Assembly: GCA_964016885.1 (NCBI GenBank)
Contig: OZ024752.1
Location: 36,456,001 to 36,520,000, forward strand
Length of the DNA: 64,000 nt
Reading direction: 5' to 3'
Origin: Eledone cirrhosa
Lineage: Eukaryota
Positions 9,189 to 41,752 of the stretch are shown piece after piece; the stretch's first letter is position 1; the number at the start of each line of letters is the position of its first letter. Under the pieces are notes generated by a model, which saw only the letters and a program-made list of their open reading frames with translations, was not told where the DNA came from and searched no databases. Made by a program: the position numbers and the translations under genes.

Positions 9189-9231
<43 letters not shown>

Positions 9232-9287
9232 ACTGTTTCTACTTTAGGCACAATAACAAATGGAAACTATATTTATAAAACCATATT

Positions 9288-9352
9288 TATTTCATTATAC
9301 ATATTTCAAGGACACCAAGTTAAATTATGGTGTGCTTTCATCAGATAAAATA
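9288..9352 (-). ncRNA. Minimal type-I hammerhead ribozyme (mirror copy on the left arm)
   Basis: Reverse complement of 9643-9707. Confidence 0.75.
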
Positions 9353-9642
9353 TAATATAGATAAGTTTTATAAATAAATATTGACATACCCTTAAAGAAT
9401 GCGACCATTTCTGTTGGAAGCTCCCGCGAGCTTCCAACAGAAATGGTCGCATTCTTTAAGGGTATGTCAATATTTATTTATAAAACTTATCTATATTATG
9501 AGTTTCCAACAGAAATGGTCGCATTCTTTAAGGGTATGTCAATATTTATTTATAAAACTTATCTATATTATGAGTTTCCAACAGAAATGGTCGCATTCTT
9601 TAAGGGTATGTCAATATTTATTTATAAAACTGATCTATATTA

Positions 9643-9707
9643 TATTTTATCTGATGAAAGCACACCATAATTTAACTTGGTGTCCTTGAAATATGTATAA
9701 TGAAATA
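9643..9707 (+). ncRNA. Minimal type-I hammerhead ribozyme
   Basis: Stem I tattttat, core CUGAUGA (9651-9657), stem II aagcacacc/ggtgtcctt, GAAA (9688-9691), mini stem III U-augu-A, UA cleavage site (after 9699), then stem I' atgaaata. Confidence 0.75.
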
Positions 9708-9896
9708 AATATGGTTTTATAAATATAGTTTCCATCTGTTAATATATCGTATTTTTACTCCAATAATTTGTTGAGTGCTTTATATCGGTTATAAAAATAT
9801 TTGCTTGTTGTATCCCAACAATTTAAATAGAACTTCTACACACATATATATATATATATAATATAAGATCAAAAGATGGTTAAAGGAGTTCCATAT

Positions 9897-9965
9897 ATTT
9901 TATTATGCGCATTTCAAAAACAAACATCATCAAACAATAATATTTGTGTTTTCATCAGATAAAAC
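9897..9965 (-). ncRNA. Minimal type-I hammerhead ribozyme (mirror copy)
   Basis: Reverse complement of 10086-10154. Confidence 0.8.
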
Positions 9966-10085
9966 AGGAGAACATGATATGAAGGCTAAAAAACACTTGT
10001 TGATAGTGCAGTTTTAAATCAACATATGTTGATTTAAAACTGCACTATCAACAAGTGTTTTTTAGCCTTCATATCATGTTCTCCT

Positions 10086-10154
10086 GTTTTATCTGATGAA
10101 AACACAAATATTATTGTTTGATGATGTTTGTTTTTGAAATGCGCATAATAAAAT
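10086..10154 (+). ncRNA. Minimal type-I hammerhead ribozyme
   Basis: Stem I gttttat, CUGAUGA (10093-10099), stem II aaacacaaata/tgtttgttttt, GAAA (10136-10139), self-complementary stem III UGCGCA, UA cleavage (after 10147), then stem I' ataaaat. Confidence 0.8.
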
Positions 10155-10276
10155 ATATGGAACTCCTTTAACCATCTTTTGATCTTATATTATGCATACT
10201 CCAGTCCCACAAACTGTAGAGTGCTTCTTATCCGATATCTGCATTGCTTTATTGTACTACAATAAAACTCACCTCC

Positions 10277-10343
<67 letters not shown>

Positions 10344-20659: not shown

Positions 20660-20752
20660 GTACTCGCTCCTACAGTATATATAATAAAATTGGAACGATA
20701 CAGAGGAGATTAAGCATGGCCCCTATAAATTCGTGAAGTGTATCATACCTTT
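20660..20752 (+). pseudogene. RNU6: U6 snRNA pseudogene lacking most of the internal stem-loop
   Basis: GTACTCGCTCC...TAAAATTGGAACGATACAGAGGAGATTAAGCATGGCCCCT..AAATTCGTGAAGTG aligns to canonical U6. The GCGCAAGGATGACACGC segment is missing and the 5' stem and terminator are mutated. Confidence 0.9.
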
Positions 20753-34658: not shown

Positions 34659-37600
34659 TTAACTTAATTTCTGTTTCACTATAGCTATTGTTCTTTTCTG
34701 TTGCTCCAGCATTTCTTTCAGACGCTGTATTCGTGCTAATTCCGGGGTGAGTCCCACATTAAACTTGTTCAGTAAGGCACTATGGTGTGTAGGAGTAGAT
34801 GAGCTAATATTTCTTTCTTGATCAGTTGTGGAATATTGAAGTTGTGTTGGGAATGAACTCACATTTAATGATGGATTTACAGAAGAAAAAGGCTGTCTTT
34901 CAGCCGAGAAAAGATAAGAAGAGCTTTGGGGATAACTTGCAGTATTATCAGTGGAATTTTCATAACAGTGACAAGCTTCTGGTGTACCACCATAAGCATA
35001 AGTTTGTTCAGAGTCATCATGAGAACACAGAGAAGCAAGGGGGCTGGTTTTAGAAATAGGGGATGTATTTGATTTAGAAAAATTATCACATTCTGTAAAG
35101 TCTAAGGATTGTGAAACTTGTTGCAACGATGTGGATTTTGAAGGGATTGATTTTATTGTATTTGAACTATTACTATCTAAAAAGGGTGCAGGTGATTTTG
35201 GTGTGAGTTCTGTTGTATTATTATCAAATGTCTTTTCATTATTAGGTTTCATAAATATATTATTTTCTGAGAGAACATCATCATAATTTCCCGAAGGTTC
35301 ACTTTTAATTTTGCCATCGTTTATATAATTTGTGATGTATCCCTTAGTTGTATTATTGCATGAAAGTAGAGAACCTGTCATAAGAGGTAATTTAGTTTCA
35401 TGGGCAATATTTTCTCCAGCTAGGCCGCCTGGACACTTTACAATTTTATGTGGATCAAGAACATCTTTTGAGTATTTAGAACGGATTTTAGAAGCCCTCT
35501 TTCTTTGTTTCCATGCTTTATCATTAGTTATTAATATTTTTTTTCGCCGTCTTCCACGCCTTTTGAGTCTCTTTTCTCTCGTCGCTTCTACATCTGCCTC
35601 TAAATTACTAGAAAGATCTTCCAAGAGCGATACAGAACTATGAGATGTGGCTTTAGTACACTGTCTGGGCTGTCTGGCTGCTCGTGGAGGCAAACTGCTT
35701 CTACGTCGCTGGGGAGGTTTTCTTCTTTTTCTTCTTCTCTTCATGGGCTTTTTTGATGCTTGCAAAATGCTGCGTCTGGCAACTGCAGAAGAGTTTTTCA
35801 TGAGACTATTATCACAGGGAGATACTCCAATCTGATAAGTATGATCATAGTTTGGAGTCTCAGAAACTCGTTGCATTTTTAAGGTTTTTAATTTGGCTGG
35901 ACGCCCTCTTTTACGAGGAGGAGGAGGAGGAGGAAGAGGAGGAGGATAAGGATAAGGATAAGGAACTATAGTTGAAGAATTGTTCACCATAGCAGTGCCA
36001 GTTAAAGTAGTTTGGTATTCATTTCTATTTTGATTATTAAGTGAATCAATTACATTTGGCATATCATTCAATTCAGTTTTAAAAGTTACAGCCAATGGAT
36101 TTGGCGTATAACTGATTACAGTTGATATCCATTTTCTCGCAGTCCTTATAGATTTCAGAGCAAATTCCTTTTCAGTAATTGCATGAGTTTTCAAAGGCTG
36201 CCTTGCTATCTTTTTCCAATTGATAGGTTTCTTACGAATACTTTTTAACTTTGAAGCACTCAAACGTAGCCGATGTTTCTTCTTACGTAATGGTACCATG
36301 TAAATATTATGAATAACATTTTCAATATTAGATTTCTTCACACACTGATGAACTGATTTCACATCTTTTGATACACTTCCTTGATTTCTAGTTAATCTGT
36401 TTTGGATTTCAAAGACCAATGATTTCATTGAACCAGACGACTTTACTTTCTGGAGTTTCGCCTTTTTGCTAGTCCTTTTTGACGGAGTCTTATTAGGATG
36501 AGTATTTACAGATGGGCTTTTCGAAAACTTGGAAGAACTGTCTTTACGAGGGCGGCCCCTTTTCTTCGGGATCTTTGGCTGTTTCTCTAATTTTTTTTGT
36601 AAGAGTAGCTTGTCATTGGCATCAAGCATAACAACCCGATCAGTGGTAGTTGGTTCGTTATAAAATGACTGGACTTCCTCTAAAGAGGGAGCATGTTCAT
36701 ATTTAGGCTGTTTCTTAATATTTTTAATGGGTAATTTCTCCATTACATTGTTATTAGTTAAAGCTGAATTAATGGTGTTGTTCATAAAACACTCATTTTC
36801 CTTTAAAAGCTGCATTTTCTCATCAAAAGTTTTACGCTTTATTTTCTCATTTTTATTTTTCACAACTTTTTTCTTTTTTACAATCATTTCACTCTTCGGT
36901 GTTTTCGGCAACTTTTCAGGAGGTTTTTTAAGTCCAGAAATGTTTGTTTTGTTTGAAGTAGTAGTAGTAGCTTTCTCTAAGCTTTTTACATTTTTATAGC
37001 CCAAAGTCTTTGGTATTGGAACCAACTGATTATTGGAATTACCTTTAAGAATTCCATTTCTATAAGCATCATTCTGATTTTTCATCAGTGGAATCATATT
37101 AGAACTGCTATTCATAGAGAACAGCTTTTCTTTAGGAACTATCTCATATTTCAACTTACCAATAATGCTGTTTTCCGTAGAAAACGGCAGTGGTGGTGCT
37201 AGTTGTTGTTGTAGTGGTAGTGGTAGTGGTGTTCTCAAGGCACCAGTATTTGATATTGCTGTTCTGCAACTTAAAGCAGCATTATTTGGTACTTTATAAA
37301 ATGTATTCACAGTATTTGGCATGACCACACTCTCATGACCACAATTATTACCGAAAATTGGCAAGTTTCCTTTGTTTATGGAATCACTGTTTAGATCTGC
37401 ATGAGATTTCGTATAATTTGCAGTTATTCTTTCATTAGATAATTTATAATAATTATGTTCAGTATCTGGAGTCTGAAAATGAGTATTTGATAACGTCCGA
37501 GGAGTATACAGCATATCTGGATTGCCATGAAATTGTGGTTTCATCACAGGGGTAGGATTATGAACAAAACTGTCTTTTTTAAATTCTATTTGCTGCTTTA

Positions 37601-40049
37601 TCAAAGGAACAGGATTCACTGAAGTATATTGTAGTTGAGGACTACCTAATGGTGTGATATTTCTGTTAGTAAATTCCATTGGGTAAATTGAGCTGCTTGT
37701 AAGTGGTGGAGAAGCAGGGTTTTGGTCTCTGATCATTTGCCTCTCGCATTTTATTAAGGGTACGTTAGGATGACGTCTAAACAAAGGCAAAGATCCTACA
37801 TTTGCTGCTGTTTTCATGAAATGCTGCCTGCATCTTCTTGAACATTTTAAAGACCTGACAAGGTGACTCGGAAGATCATTTAAATCGACGGAGCCAAAAT
37901 AACCAAGTTCTGATAATACAACACAACAGTGAATACTTCGAGCTATTTCAAATAAAATAGTATAGTGGGTTAAGGATTTTTTATATTTAGATGATTTAGC
38001 CAACATAGAGCTAAATAATTTACCAAAAGACAATTTTCGATTCTTTTTAAGCCCTGCTGCATATTTTGTACGGTCTGGCAATGATGGTGCCAGATTTTCT
38101 GTATGATTTTGAAGCAATGTCGGTGATAACTGTGTGTTTGGATTTTGAAGTAATGGAGATGATAATTGTGTGTTTGTTTGATATTGAGGTTGTAACTGGG
38201 GTGGAAAGGAACTGTTTGGTAAGTCTTCTCGTTCCAGTTTAGGTGGACTCATATCCCCAGAAACATTTGTTACTGTACAATCATCATCATCAAAGAATTC
38301 TTCTCGTTCTTTTATAACCAAAAGGTCCGCGGCGGATTTTTTCTTTTTATTAACGCTTTTTTGTTTTGATTTAACAGAGGAAAAACCTGGTGCAATTGTT
38401 AGCTTTGGAGGAGAAGAATATATCTGACGTTTAAAAGTTAAAGGTGTTGTCAAGTCCTGAGAATTCATTGGATCTCTATTAGAATCATTGCAAATTTCTA
38501 AGTTGTTTTGGCTAATATTTATATTTCTGTCAGGTAAAACATTTGTTAAAGTTTGTTTAAAATCTATAATAGAAGAAGCATGAACTGGAGGGTGGTCTGA
38601 TAGAAAACTGGTCTGTGAAATAAACTCTTGGGATGGGGAATGGAAAGAACAGAGTGGGATGGAACTGGAGTTAACTGTGGAATAGGAGGGTGCCATACAC
38701 CATGACTGTGATGTGTTCATTAATTGCATTGAGGAGAAAGGAACATTAGGTTTTATAGGAGGAGGAGCAGGAGGAGGTATATTATATACTTTTGGAAAAG
38801 ATTTCCTGGCTCGTGGACCATAAGGTCGTTTAGCAGTAATCTTTTTATCAGAAATGGAATTAGTTTGACAAACTGAATCACTCTTACGAGAAGAACTTAA
38901 CCCAGAAGACATATGAGGCACTGTTGGTGAATTTAAGGAGGTTTTAGCAATGTTCATGGAGGAAAAGTTATATTTTTGCTGATTTGAACCATTGTTTTCA
39001 CACGAAGAACAATTCACACCATTCTTTTCAAGAGATGAAGGAGTAGCAGGAGGATATTTCTGTGTTAAACAAACAGTTTTTAGATTAGCACTGCCTTTGA
39101 CAATTTTGGAATTTTCTGATGTCCCGGTTACATCTTTATTTCCTCTGATAATCTCGACAGATTCTTTCAATTTAGCACATTTTGTAGCGTAGTCACTAAT
39201 ATTCTTTATAGGTTTAGGTAAAATAGAAACATGCTTTCTAACATTCACTTTATTTGGTACTGTTATCACGGCAGCTGTTGGTGAATCAGAGTTATTCCCA
39301 CTGTTGGAAGAACTTGGTTTGACTAGTACCTCATCGTGAAGAGAAGGTGATGAATTAGATGTCACTGACCGATTGATTCGATCAGCCGGGATAACGGACT
39401 TTGAAGTAATTAGTCTACTTTGACTTGATGAAACAGCTGTCAAAGGGGGATTTAAAAGTGCTAAATCTGTTGTACCAGATGTAGGAATGAGTAAAAATTG
39501 TTTGGGTGGCATGTTAGCTTGTGTTTGTGAACCAGTAGTTAGTATAACCATTCCAGGTTTTTTGTTATTCGGAAGCTGATATAAAAATTGATTGTTGTTA
39601 TCTGCAACTGATGTTGTTGTTGATGTTGTTGTTATACTAGTAGCTGTGACATTAGATGTTTTGCAGTTAATTTTCATAGAATGGAAGTCAGCCGGGTAAG
39701 ATTTGTCCGTCACCAAAAGTAACTTTTTTGTACCGTTAGTTGGGGAGGTGATAGTAATTAGGGAATGGATATTTGATTTAATAGCTGCTGGTGTATGGGG
39801 CTCAACTGGAGATGAAAGAGATAAGCCTGTTTGTGTAGCATCTGACTGAGATTTCAGATTGGTCTTTGTGATGGCTGATGTTTTCTTAACACGAATAGCA
39901 GGATCTACTGGTGCTATAACCTTTACTGCTCTTGGTTTTGACTTCCTAAGGCGAATATGGTGAAGTTTGTTCTTGTCATTTTCGCTTTTCCTTGGTCTCC
40001 CACGCCGCGGCTTCGCATTTGTGGCAGGATCACTGGAATTTTGCTCCAT
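34659..40049 (-). CDS. 1796-aa AT-hook-containing, largely low-complexity nuclear protein encoded by one coding exon
   Basis: Uninterrupted 5391-nt ORF in AT-rich DNA. A splice acceptor (tttcag) lies 24 nt before the ATG, so the exon starts at 40073. Three AT-hooks (PRRGRPRK, KKRGRPRK, RKRGRPAK), basic NLS-like tracts and a C-terminal amphipathic helix. No transposon motifs. Confidence 0.9.
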   Translation of the reverse strand: MEQNSSDPATNAKPRRGRPRKSENDKNKLHHIRLRKSKPRAVKVIAPVDPAIRVKKTSAITKTNLKSQSDATQTGLSLSSPVEPHTPAAIKSNIHSLITITSPTNGTKKLLLVTDKSYPADFHSMKINCKTSNVTATSITTTSTTTSVADNNNQFLYQLPNNKKPGMVILTTGSQTQANMPPKQFLLIPTSGTTDLALLNPPLTAVSSSQSRLITSKSVIPADRINRSVTSNSSPSLHDEVLVKPSSSNSGNNSDSPTAAVITVPNKVNVRKHVSILPKPIKNISDYATKCAKLKESVEIIRGNKDVTGTSENSKIVKGSANLKTVCLTQKYPPATPSSLEKNGVNCSSCENNGSNQQKYNFSSMNIAKTSLNSPTVPHMSSGLSSSRKSDSVCQTNSISDKKITAKRPYGPRARKSFPKVYNIPPPAPPPIKPNVPFSSMQLMNTSQSWCMAPSYSTVNSSSIPLCSFHSPSQEFISQTSFLSDHPPVHASSIIDFKQTLTNVLPDRNINISQNNLEICNDSNRDPMNSQDLTTPLTFKRQIYSSPPKLTIAPGFSSVKSKQKSVNKKKKSAADLLVIKEREEFFDDDDCTVTNVSGDMSPPKLEREDLPNSSFPPQLQPQYQTNTQLSSPLLQNPNTQLSPTLLQNHTENLAPSLPDRTKYAAGLKKNRKLSFGKLFSSMLAKSSKYKKSLTHYTILFEIARSIHCCVVLSELGYFGSVDLNDLPSHLVRSLKCSRRCRQHFMKTAANVGSLPLFRRHPNVPLIKCERQMIRDQNPASPPLTSSSIYPMEFTNRNITPLGSPQLQYTSVNPVPLIKQQIEFKKDSFVHNPTPVMKPQFHGNPDMLYTPRTLSNTHFQTPDTEHNYYKLSNERITANYTKSHADLNSDSINKGNLPIFGNNCGHESVVMPNTVNTFYKVPNNAALSCRTAISNTGALRTPLPLPLQQQLAPPLPFSTENSIIGKLKYEIVPKEKLFSMNSSSNMIPLMKNQNDAYRNGILKGNSNNQLVPIPKTLGYKNVKSLEKATTTTSNKTNISGLKKPPEKLPKTPKSEMIVKKKKVVKNKNEKIKRKTFDEKMQLLKENECFMNNTINSALTNNNVMEKLPIKNIKKQPKYEHAPSLEEVQSFYNEPTTTDRVVMLDANDKLLLQKKLEKQPKIPKKRGRPRKDSSSKFSKSPSVNTHPNKTPSKRTSKKAKLQKVKSSGSMKSLVFEIQNRLTRNQGSVSKDVKSVHQCVKKSNIENVIHNIYMVPLRKKKHRLRLSASKLKSIRKKPINWKKIARQPLKTHAITEKEFALKSIRTARKWISTVISYTPNPLAVTFKTELNDMPNVIDSLNNQNRNEYQTTLTGTAMVNNSSTIVPYPYPYPPPLPPPPPPRKRGRPAKLKTLKMQRVSETPNYDHTYQIGVSPCDNSLMKNSSAVARRSILQASKKPMKRRRKRRKPPQRRRSSLPPRAARQPRQCTKATSHSSVSLLEDLSSNLEADVEATREKRLKRRGRRRKKILITNDKAWKQRKRASKIRSKYSKDVLDPHKIVKCPGGLAGENIAHETKLPLMTGSLLSCNNTTKGYITNYINDGKIKSEPSGNYDDVLSENNIFMKPNNEKTFDNNTTELTPKSPAPFLDSNSSNTIKSIPSKSTSLQQVSQSLDFTECDNFSKSNTSPISKTSPLASLCSHDDSEQTYAYGGTPEACHCYENSTDNTASYPQSSSYLFSAERQPFSSVNPSLNVSSFPTQLQYSTTDQERNISSSTPTHHSALLNKFNVGLTPELARIQRLKEMLEQQKRTIAIVKQKLS

Positions 40050-41752
40050 TTTAGCTTATAACATCACAAAAATCTGAAAGAAAAAAGAAAAATAATTCAA
40101 TAATTTACACATTTGTATTCATAAATTGACTTTAAAAAGCTTTAACAACTACAACTGCTCAAAGGTACGATTTGTAGGACATTGCTGCAGAAGTAAGCAA
40201 GAAGTTATACACAAACCACTATATATATAAGCTTCAAACTAAATGTACGAATACTGAAAGAATACGAATACATTATATATATACCCTATATACTTAAACT
40301 GGTGTCAAATGTGGAAACTGGCATTGGAGAAAAAAGCAGGAAGTTATATACAAGTTACTATTGTGGGAACCAACTCATGGGAGACGCAGTAGAGGAAGAC
40401 CTGCTTGAACATTCATTGATCAACTCTCAGTAGGGAGCAATTGAAAATTGTGAATTGTTGAGATGCTTTGTTACTTTATAATGGCTTTTCTATACAATGA
40501 GGTCCTTCCCAGCATAACCAGTCTCCATTTGTGTTCCTTTGTCATCTCCTCTGCGAGGTTCAGCATTTTGAAATTCGTTCTAATTACTTCTGCTCAGGTT
40601 TTTCTTGGCCTTCCTCTACTGCAGCTTTCTTCTACTTCTTCCTATGTCCATACCAGAACAGTCTTCTATCTTGCACATTACACCAGATTCTCTCAGTTCA
40701 TCCATGCCCTGTTGATCATACACACTAACATTACACATCCAACAAAATGCTCATTTCATTTCTCTCCAGCCACAAAATAAAATCTTATTTTGCATTCTAA
40801 AATAGATCAATAATCATTATGTTGTCATTTTGTTTTGTTCTAGAACACTCATCATTAACTGTTCCACTCCCATTCAATTAGCCCTAAAGTCTTTATCTCC
40901 TTTCTGCAATGAATTTGGGCCACTGTGCTAAATTTTGTGATGATTTGTTGATAAATTATGACATTGTTTCAAGACAAACCCGATAGTTTATTATATATAT
41001 ATAATTGTTTCTACTTTTGGCACAAGGCCAGCAATTACCCAGTGCATTACTGGTACTTTATTTTATCGACCCCATAAGGATGAAAGGCAAAGTTAACCTC
41101 GGCAGGATTTGAACTCAGAATGGCAAGGGCCGTAACTGTGCATCAAAACATAGCGTCCGACCCTCTACCGATACTGCCAATCCACTGCCCTTATATATAA
41201 CATACATATGTATTATTATAATATATATAAGTAATTTATCAGTAATTGTGAGTGTTATCAAGACTAAGTGTAAGTAACAAACAAAAAAAGTACAAGTTAT
41301 TTAATATTAACAAAAAAGAAACAAATCTTTCTCCATATATGGCATCTGAGGAAAGAAATAGGTTGATCAGTTCACTTTATTCACAATACACTTAACTAGT
41401 CAATAATAACGGATTGTTTTGAAATGCTAGACAGAGACAACAACAACAACACAAATATCCTAAAAAACATATACCATTTGAATATACAATAGAAATACTG
41501 CCATTATCTACAACTATTCATTTGTAATAGGAAGATCTGATGACGAAAGTTTTGCCATTTTTGTCATTATTAATAATTAACTTTTACTTTGTAAAGTGGC
41601 TGGCATGACTGAAGAGAGACAATATAGCGTAGAGAAAACTCTTCAGTAATTCCTGAGCACATGACAACTTCCCTGGTCCTAGTGCCTCAATAAAATGCAT
41701 TCAGTACACTCTGTAAAATGGTAGTACTGGTGCCACAATAAAATACACCCAG

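What the first reader, a model, noticed from the sequence alone, without database searches (positions are those of the whole stretch)
9254..10193. Two back-to-back long palindromes, each with an outward-facing hammerhead ribozyme on both strands
Seen in sequence: within 940 bp there are two palindromes of largely unrelated sequence. Each arm holds a full minimal type-I hammerhead (stem I, CUGAUGA, stem II, GAAA, tiny stem III, UA, stem I'), giving four ribozyme motifs: 9288-9352(-), 9643-9707(+), 9897-9965(-) and 10086-10154(+). The two families share only core and architecture; their stem II sequences differ completely yet both pair. No ORF or RT is present. Established knowledge: minimal hammerheads with a palindromic stem III occur in Penelope-like element pLTRs and retrozymes and are thought to cleave as dimers; PLE insertions often carry inverted pLTRs. 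Inference: these are non-autonomous, ribozyme-bearing foldback retroelements targeted to (TA)n tracts. Read-through from either direction gives the same RNA, which can either form long dsRNA (ribozyme masked, ADAR/Dicer substrate) or self-cleave.
Basis: partly seen in the sequence, partly recalled or inferred. Interest (0 to 1): 0.8.

Follow-up and report, generated by a model that had tools for sequence, protein, structure and literature searches.

The report
Mirror-image stumps of Penelope retrotransposons
The two palindromes are short head-to-head insertions of two related, ribozyme-bearing Penelope-like jumping genes, a known arrangement, but their copies almost always pair one short with one long end, which likely means that both ends of the cut DNA copy the start of the element's RNA and so offers a test of how such mirror images form.

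Summary
In detail: two palindromes and four minimal type I hammerhead motifs at the stated places. They are not a new non-autonomous foldback family. Each is the pLTR end of a Hydra-clade Penelope-like element (PLE). The right one (F2) is 99% identical to a 3.9-kb tandem unit with an intact 800-aa RT plus GIY-YIG frame; the left (F1) belongs to a paralogue, 53% identical in protein. The ribozyme motifs have 1,720 and 3,142 exact copies. Inverted pLTRs, tails, ribozymes on both strands and (TA)n targets are all published for PLEs. What the copies add is mechanism. In 76 of 77 F2 pairs one arm ends at +100 and the other at +188. About half of all arms begin at one base, 70 nt before the core, often with an extra G. 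The short arm often reaches further upstream than the long arm, and the ribozyme cut site shows no peak of copy ends. Best reading: two target-primed reverse transcriptions from two internal sites run to the capped 5' end and are joined head to head. This is inferred from DNA; no RNA or cleavage data were available.

The parts
9192..9228 (.). (TA)n tract, left target
9229..9253 (-). 25-nt end of an unrelated common dispersed repeat; it replaces the last ~9 nt of the F1 short arm
   Evidence: 33 short matches in window and loci
9254..9426 (-). F1 short arm (parent positions about -82 to +90; 0 = C of CUGAUGA)
9288..9352 (-). F1 minimal type I hammerhead, predicted cut after 9296
9424..9571 (+). 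two extra 72-bp copies of the F1 leader (-79 to -8); by two marker bases the first matches the left arm, the second looks like a recombinant of first and third
9572..9839 (+). F1 long arm (-79 to about +190), with tail 9750-9839
9643..9707 (+). F1 minimal type I hammerhead, predicted cut after 9699
9840..9859 (.). short CA/TA tract between the elements: target at the F1 long end and at the F2 short end
9858..10028 (-). F2 short arm (-71 to +100)
9896..9966 (-). F2 minimal type I hammerhead, predicted cut after 9904
10023..10028 (.). palindrome centre; the four self-complementary bases 10024-10027 are the inferred first four bases of the RNA, shared by both arms
   Evidence: 306 hits, about 153 loci, share this centre
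10023..10281 (+). F2 long arm (-71 to +188), with 88-nt tail 10194-10281
   Evidence: 99% to parent L131
10085..10155 (+). F2 minimal type I hammerhead, predicted cut after 10147
10280..10317 (.). (TA)n tract, right target

Best explanation
The two palindromes are separate head-to-head insertions of the ribozyme-bearing ends of two paralogous Hydra-clade Penelope-like retrotransposons, each likely made by two reverse transcriptions that start from the two ends of a cut (TA)n target and copy the front of the element's RNA. Shown: family identity, intact F2 parent, one short (+100) plus one long (+188) end per pair, both flush with (TA)n, a sharp 5' boundary at -70 (F2) or -88 (F1), an intact ribozyme in the copies. 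Inferred steps: (1) the parent RNA starts, capped, at -70/-88 in the pLTR; (2) the RT-endonuclease cuts both strands of (TA)n; (3) one DNA end primes at the short site and the other at the long site of the same uncut RNA; (4) on the 5' pLTR both copies run off at the cap and often gain an extra base opposite it (short palindromes like these), on the downstream pLTR they run into the 3' UTR and ORF (long palindromes); (5) the two cDNA 3' ends are joined by microhomology or host end-joining. The ribozyme here is a passenger of the pLTR; it is predicted to cleave only as a dimer or with help. F2, the less diverged family, probably landed later in the TA tract at the F1 long end. Confidence in the identity is about 0.97, in the double-priming mechanism about 0.6.
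For: Parent: 821-codon open frame in a 3,896-bp tandem unit, many copies 100% identical over 312 aa; model's best solved match is telomerase TERT, E 2e-7; weak GIY-YIG hit; F1 parent 53% identical over its 436-aa fragment. Ends: 39 of 39 F2 pairs short+long, plus L050/L051, plus 36 of 37 pairs in a second sample of 40 loci; F1 21 of 26. Beyond the ends, 106 of 113 long and 107 of 111 short non-continuing ends run into TA repeats (overlapping loci counted more than once). 5' boundary: arms with a non-parent base just before -70 number 742 (418 G, 324 A/T), plus 306 perfect-centre hits, against 1,065 read-through arms and only 55 with a non-parent base one position later, 6 of them G. Of 40 G junctions read, 13 have a G with no local template. 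F1: 504 such arms, 38 G among the first 100 listed. The short arm reaches further upstream than the long arm in 11 of 31 short pairs, the reverse in 3, equal in 17. Arms of a pair share subfamily markers: 17 GG, 46 TT, 1 GT at F2 +66. Published support: the Anolis Poseidon protein cleaves and extends both strands, starts at two internal sites that bound the tail, and uses uncut RNA (PMC11167929); D. virilis Penelope starts transcription inside its pLTR (PMC2377424).
Against: No RNA, cap or cleavage data. 27 of 40 G junctions can be explained by the partner arm or a local duplication; in F1 the G is also ambiguous. Trimming during end-joining could blur which arm reached further. Marker concordance would also follow if one master copy was active at a time, and one F1 site (-76) differs between arms in 3 of 11 pairs with 0 shared; the window's F1 arms differ at three places. 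F1 has 3 short+short and 1 long+long pairs of 26, three of these four in complex loci. The in vitro paper saw no difference of start site between the two strands and does not treat inverted copies. A looser BLAST count gave 7 short-further, 14 long-further, 18 equal over all 39 pairs, long ones included.
Confidence: 0.62

Rival explanations
1. Same outcome, but two RNA molecules are used, one per DNA end, perhaps held together as a hammerhead dimer through the palindromic stem III.
For: Stem III is fully self-complementary in both families and stays so across relatives; F2 stem III duplex -10.5 kcal/mol. F1 site -76 differs between arms. Some pairs carry the extra G on both arms (listing).
Against: Arms agree at subfamily markers in 63 of 64 F2 pairs; in 5 long pairs the two arms differ by 0-2 substitutions against 4-18 between loci; short pairs with short and long with long in most cases. 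The F1 stem III duplex is weak (-2.2 kcal/mol).
Confidence: 0.17
2. The second arm arises by self-priming (fold-back), on the first cDNA or on an antisense template, as proposed for PLEs by Arkhipova et al. 2013.
For: Perfect palindromic centres are the commonest class (about 153 loci); a 7-bp hairpin lies at the F2 5' boundary; arms share markers; published proposal (PMC3846280).
Against: A fold-back copy cannot be longer than its template at both ends, yet in 11 of 31 pairs each arm has sequence that the other lacks. Both outer ends sit at fixed sites flush with (TA)n. The extra G and the one-base 5' peak fit a sense, capped RNA.
Confidence: 0.15
3. The short palindrome is itself a non-autonomous foldback element that amplifies as a unit and is controlled by dsRNA formation or self-cleavage.
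For: One centre type recurs about 153 times; 9 of 10 perfect-centre loci read share one haplotype; the short form has no ORF.
Against: 41 distinct centres in 57 short pairs; the perfect centre occurs on two haplotypes; a continuum of arm lengths up to 3 kb leads into the parent ORF; the long end is left or right at random.
Confidence: 0.05
4. Assembly fold-back artefact.
For: Long perfect inverted repeats are a known artefact class (own knowledge); no contig of the four runs spans this locus.
Against: Arms have different, fixed outer ends; private changes lie in one arm only (F2 15 against 0 in both; F1 60 against 9); hundreds of loci share the anatomy.
Confidence: 0.01

Closest known systems
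Hydra-clade PLEs (Craig et al. 2021, PMC8557442), e.g. Penelope-13_HM and Hydra-1_Obim
   Same: DKT, CxCX5C linker, CxxC and CxH in a C-terminal endonuclease, no GxKF/Y, hammerhead in the pLTR, (TA)n target. Penelope-13_HM is listed with a 5'-truncated inverted copy and the ribozyme on both strands (supplement).
   Different: Unit 3.9 kb against 'generally <3 kb'; RWT/RWL in place of RWK; tail about 90 nt against 30-40 nt; ribozyme sequence unlike the listed Hydra-1_oBim motif (read by eye).
Poseidon of Anolis (PAc; Frangieh et al. 2024, PMC11167929)
   Same: Two ends downstream of the ribozyme that bound a tail; AT-rich target; uncut RNA as template.
   Different: Other clade; there the start sites lie 111-118 nt inside the ORF, here both lie in the 5' UTR (ATG at +267 in F2, +234 in F1). 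That paper gives no account of inverted pairs or of a capped run-off end in the parts read.
Minimal PLE hammerheads (Cervera and De la Pena 2014, PMC4209133)
   Same: Type I, palindromic stem III, dual motifs 100-700 bp apart on opposite strands, ascribed to truncated PLEs.
   Different: Longer stem I (8 bp) and stem II here; A at the cut site; activity untested.
Non-LTR retrozymes (definition as in bioRxiv 10.64898/2026.07.22.740005)
   Same: Type I hammerhead, no ORF, PLE-derived.
   Different: Retrozymes are head-to-tail tandem units each with a ribozyme; these are head-to-head pairs, and the 72-bp tandem units stop short of the ribozyme.
LINE-1 twin priming (recalled, not read)
   Same: Both target strands prime on one RNA and give an inversion.
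   Different: There the second primer copies a different, upstream part of the RNA; here both arms copy the same part, hence a palindrome.

Membership tests
EN+ Penelope-like elements | single ORF with telomerase-like RT and C-terminal GIY-YIG endonuclease | tested here: met
   F2 parent: 800 aa from ATG, YRDD, best fold match TERT, GIY-YIG E 0.003 below Pfam cut-off. F1 parent: same domains; the longest frame found is 436 aa, other copies are broken.
EN+ Penelope-like elements | tandem or inverted copies forming pLTRs, tail on one end | tested here: met
   3,896-bp tandems; inverted pairs, tail on one arm in 76 of 77
EN+ Penelope-like elements | hammerhead motif in the pLTR | tested here: met
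Hydra clade | DKT for DKG; GxKF/Y absent; CxCX5C linker; CxxC and CxH in the endonuclease | tested here: met
   against the description
Hydra clade | RWK motif near the N terminus | tested here: inconclusive
   RLRWT (F2) and RFRWL (F1) at the matching place; published members show RMRWK
Hydra clade | (TA)n target | tested here: met
Hydra clade | generally shorter than 3 kb (a tendency in the paper, not a strict rule) | tested here: not met
   F2 unit 3,896 bp with a 1.2-kb 3' UTR
Hydra clade | placement in the RT tree with published members | not tested
   published proteins were only read by eye in the supplement; no tree was built
Type I hammerhead ribozyme (minimal, dimer-type) | core, stems I-III, covariation | tested here: met
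   in 8 related motifs 4 of 5 stem II pairs and 1 of 4 stem III pairs change on both sides, stem I on one side only (structure was derived from these sequences)
Type I hammerhead ribozyme (minimal, dimer-type) | self-cleavage | not testable with these tools
   needs an in vitro assay
Non-LTR retrozyme | head-to-tail tandem units, each with a ribozyme | tested here: not met
   head-to-head pairs; 72-bp units lack the ribozyme
Foldback or MITE-type DNA element | symmetric termini and a fixed unit | tested here: not met
   asymmetric ends and variable centres

The most novel reading that the evidence does not exclude
Head-to-head palindromes are the primary product of PLE integration: one ribonucleoprotein primes twice, at the short and the long site of one capped, uncut RNA, from the two ends of a double-strand break, so that no second-strand synthesis of the usual kind is needed, and about half of all insertions are run-off copies of the RNA's first 170-260 bases rather than truncated 3' ends. 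The genome then maps the start site, both priming sites and a block at the long site to the base.
Probability: 0.5. Interest if true: 0.68.

Novelty: new member of a known kind. Interest (0 to 1): 0.42.

Why it matters
As an object the locus is ordinary PLE debris. As a data set it bears on an open question: Craig et al. 2021 name the formation of tandem/inverted structures as unexplained, and Arkhipova et al. 2013 proposed self-priming on an antisense template. This very young family, with over a thousand near-identical motif copies and intact ORFs, gives base-level predictions (start at -70, priming at +100 and +188, one of each per insertion) and a candidate enzyme for an in vitro test. It also indicates that the ribozyme does not define the ends of the inserted copies.

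Tried and rejected
DNA search with the F2 arm returned no candidate because common words are skipped; an exact pattern was used instead. Rfam gave no hammerhead hit. Pfam did not recognise the parent RT, and sequence searches of solved structures gave only chance hits; the fold search did. No RNA holder was listed. The four contig runs (one study, possibly the source) do not span the locus. Copies that begin at the ribozyme cut site: 36 matches with a non-parent base there, 10 junctions and 2 point changes among 12 read; this is fewer than the 55 at an off-peak position beside the start, but no neutral control position was counted. Co-folding did not return a full dimeric hammerhead, and the F1 dimer did not use stem III. 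The short-end classifier failed for F2, so the F2 counts come. PMC13000458 (passages) had nothing on cap copying. Rejected: retrozyme, DNA foldback element, assembly artefact.

Full report
Observation. Both palindromes and all four hammerhead motifs are present as described. A descriptor search gives these four motifs only, and none in 100 shuffles. I call the left family F1 and the right F2, and number positions from the C of CUGAUGA.

Families and parents. The window lies in a 3.0-Gb assembly; the organism was not determined. The F2 ribozyme occurs 1,720 times exactly, the F1 ribozyme 3,142 times. Of the first 100 F2 hits listed, 78 form 39 outward-facing pairs, 78 bp to 6 kb apart. The long pairs lead into a 3' UTR and an ORF. 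The full F2 unit is a 3,896-bp tandem with an 821-codon open frame (800 aa from the ATG at +267); all 127 scored matches to its RT part are 99-100% identical and many frames are whole. Pfam misses the RT, but a confident model (pLDDT 82) has telomerase TERT as best solved match. F1 heads a paralogous ORF, 53% identical over the 436-aa fragment of L169 and broken in the other copies read. Both carry the Hydra-clade marks of Craig et al., apart from the last letter of RWK and the greater length. The window's F2 arms are 99% and the F1 arms 92-96% identical to parent copies.

Anatomy of the insertions. Each palindrome is asymmetric. In F2 one arm ends at +100 and the other at +188, both running into (TA)n. 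This holds in 39 of 39 pairs (38 of the listed pairs plus the window), in the remaining listed pair (L050/L051), and in 36 of 37 pairs with a partner among 40 loci from other contigs, chosen for the extra G: 76 of 77. The 22 unpaired hits of the first 100 were not counted; 19 were looked at, and several are pairs whose partner lacks the exact motif. In F1, 26 of 75 loci gave a pair: 21 short+long, 3 short+short, 1 long+long, and the window, whose short arm is clipped at +90. The extra part is the PLE tail, here about 90 nt.

The 5' boundary. In 31 short F2 pairs not chosen by junction, 43 of 62 arms begin at -72 to -69. Genome-wide, 742 arms have a non-parent base just before -70 (418 G, 324 A or T), 306 hits are perfect centres, 1,065 arms read through, and 55 have a non-parent base one position later, 6 of them G. 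Junctions that happen to match the parent base are invisible in these counts. Of 40 G junctions, 13 have no local template, 10 are ambiguous with the partner arm, 9 continue the partner, 8 continue a small duplication. F1 shows the same at -88: 504 arms, G 38, T 40, A 22 in the first 100. An extra G at a fixed pyrimidine-A start is what reverse transcription of a cap leaves (own knowledge; one search found no paper for it), and Penelope of D. virilis starts inside its pLTR. I infer that -70 and -88 are transcription starts. The window's F2 centre is then the join of two run-off cDNAs through their self-complementary last four bases.

How the mirror is made. A fold-back copy of the long cDNA cannot reach further upstream than its template. 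Yet the short arm does so in 11 of 31 pairs (long arm 3, equal 17), and in 7 of 26 in the G-selected sample; a looser BLAST count over all 39 pairs gave 7, 14 and 18. Centres vary: 41 distinct in 57 short pairs, point changes included. Arms of a pair share subfamily markers (F2 +66: 63 of 64 pairs agree; F1 -66, -59, -53: no disagreement), while private changes sit in one arm, which argues against artefact and against later homogenisation. Against one template: F1 -76 differs in 3 of 11 pairs and is never shared, and agreement could reflect one active master at a time. The Anolis protein cleaves and extends both strands, starts at two sites that bound the tail, and does not need ribozyme cleavage. 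Put together, double priming from the two ends of the cut target, followed by joining of the cDNA ends, explains the pairing, the boundary and the overlap best. Steps 1-5 of that model are inferred.

The ribozyme. Stem II and the stem III palindrome covary among 8 related motifs, so the fold is probably under selection, with the caveat of few, related sequences. The copies studied span the cut site, and copies that start at it are few (36 matches). The ribozyme therefore does not set the ends of these insertions. Whether it cleaves, and whether read-through RNA of this locus forms dsRNA, is untested.

What is known. Inverted 5'-truncated copies, one-sided tails and (TA)n targeting are described by Craig et al. 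(PMC8557442: passages, sections 11 and 15, supplement part 2 and supplement searches); opposite-strand ribozyme pairs by Cervera and De la Pena (PMC4209133: parts 1-2 of 4); head-to-head palindromes and the self-priming proposal by Arkhipova et al. (PMC3846280: passages); dual initiation by Frangieh et al. (PMC11167929: parts 1-2 of 4 and passages; its supplements were not read and may bear on inverted copies). Schostak et al. (PMC2377424) was seen in passages, the retrozyme preprint in part 1 of 5. I found no paper that proposes double priming with capped run-off for PLE palindromes in searches; the library lacks most subscription papers, so this is weak. Three earlier unchecked notes of this scan report similar stumps in other genomes; they are leads, not support.

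Verdict. A real feature and a new member of a known kind. Interest 0.42, nearly all of it from the mechanistic signal in the family rather than from this locus.

Noticed in passing
L106, L107, L130, L121 (= L132): Four of the 30 ORF-bearing loci L101-L130 hold long F2 copies whose 5' ends fall at +180, +181, +184 and +188, the long priming site of the upstream pLTR; a bound protein or an RNA break may stop the cDNA there.
   Followed up: partly
L199-L238: The arm with the extra G is the short arm in 27 and the long arm in 9 of 36 short+long pairs; partner long arms stop repeatedly at +136 (3 loci) and -48 (2 loci), where they share a few bases with the start of the other arm.
   Followed up: partly
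L091:372-460; L037, L062, L083, L086, L088: Other, unrelated hammerhead families lie in the same TA-rich neighbourhoods, some with a long stem III.
   Followed up: no
window 20660-20752 (+): U6 snRNA copy that lacks about 15 internal bases, probably a pseudogene.
   Followed up: no
window 34662-40055 (-): Open frame of 1,798 codons that begins with an AT-hook-like motif (label from memory); no Pfam match.
   Followed up: partly
L103:2890-3125 (protein residues 580-657): Asn-rich, low-confidence insert between RT and endonuclease in the F2 protein, absent from F1; N-rich inserts are described for rotifer Penelope.
   Followed up: no
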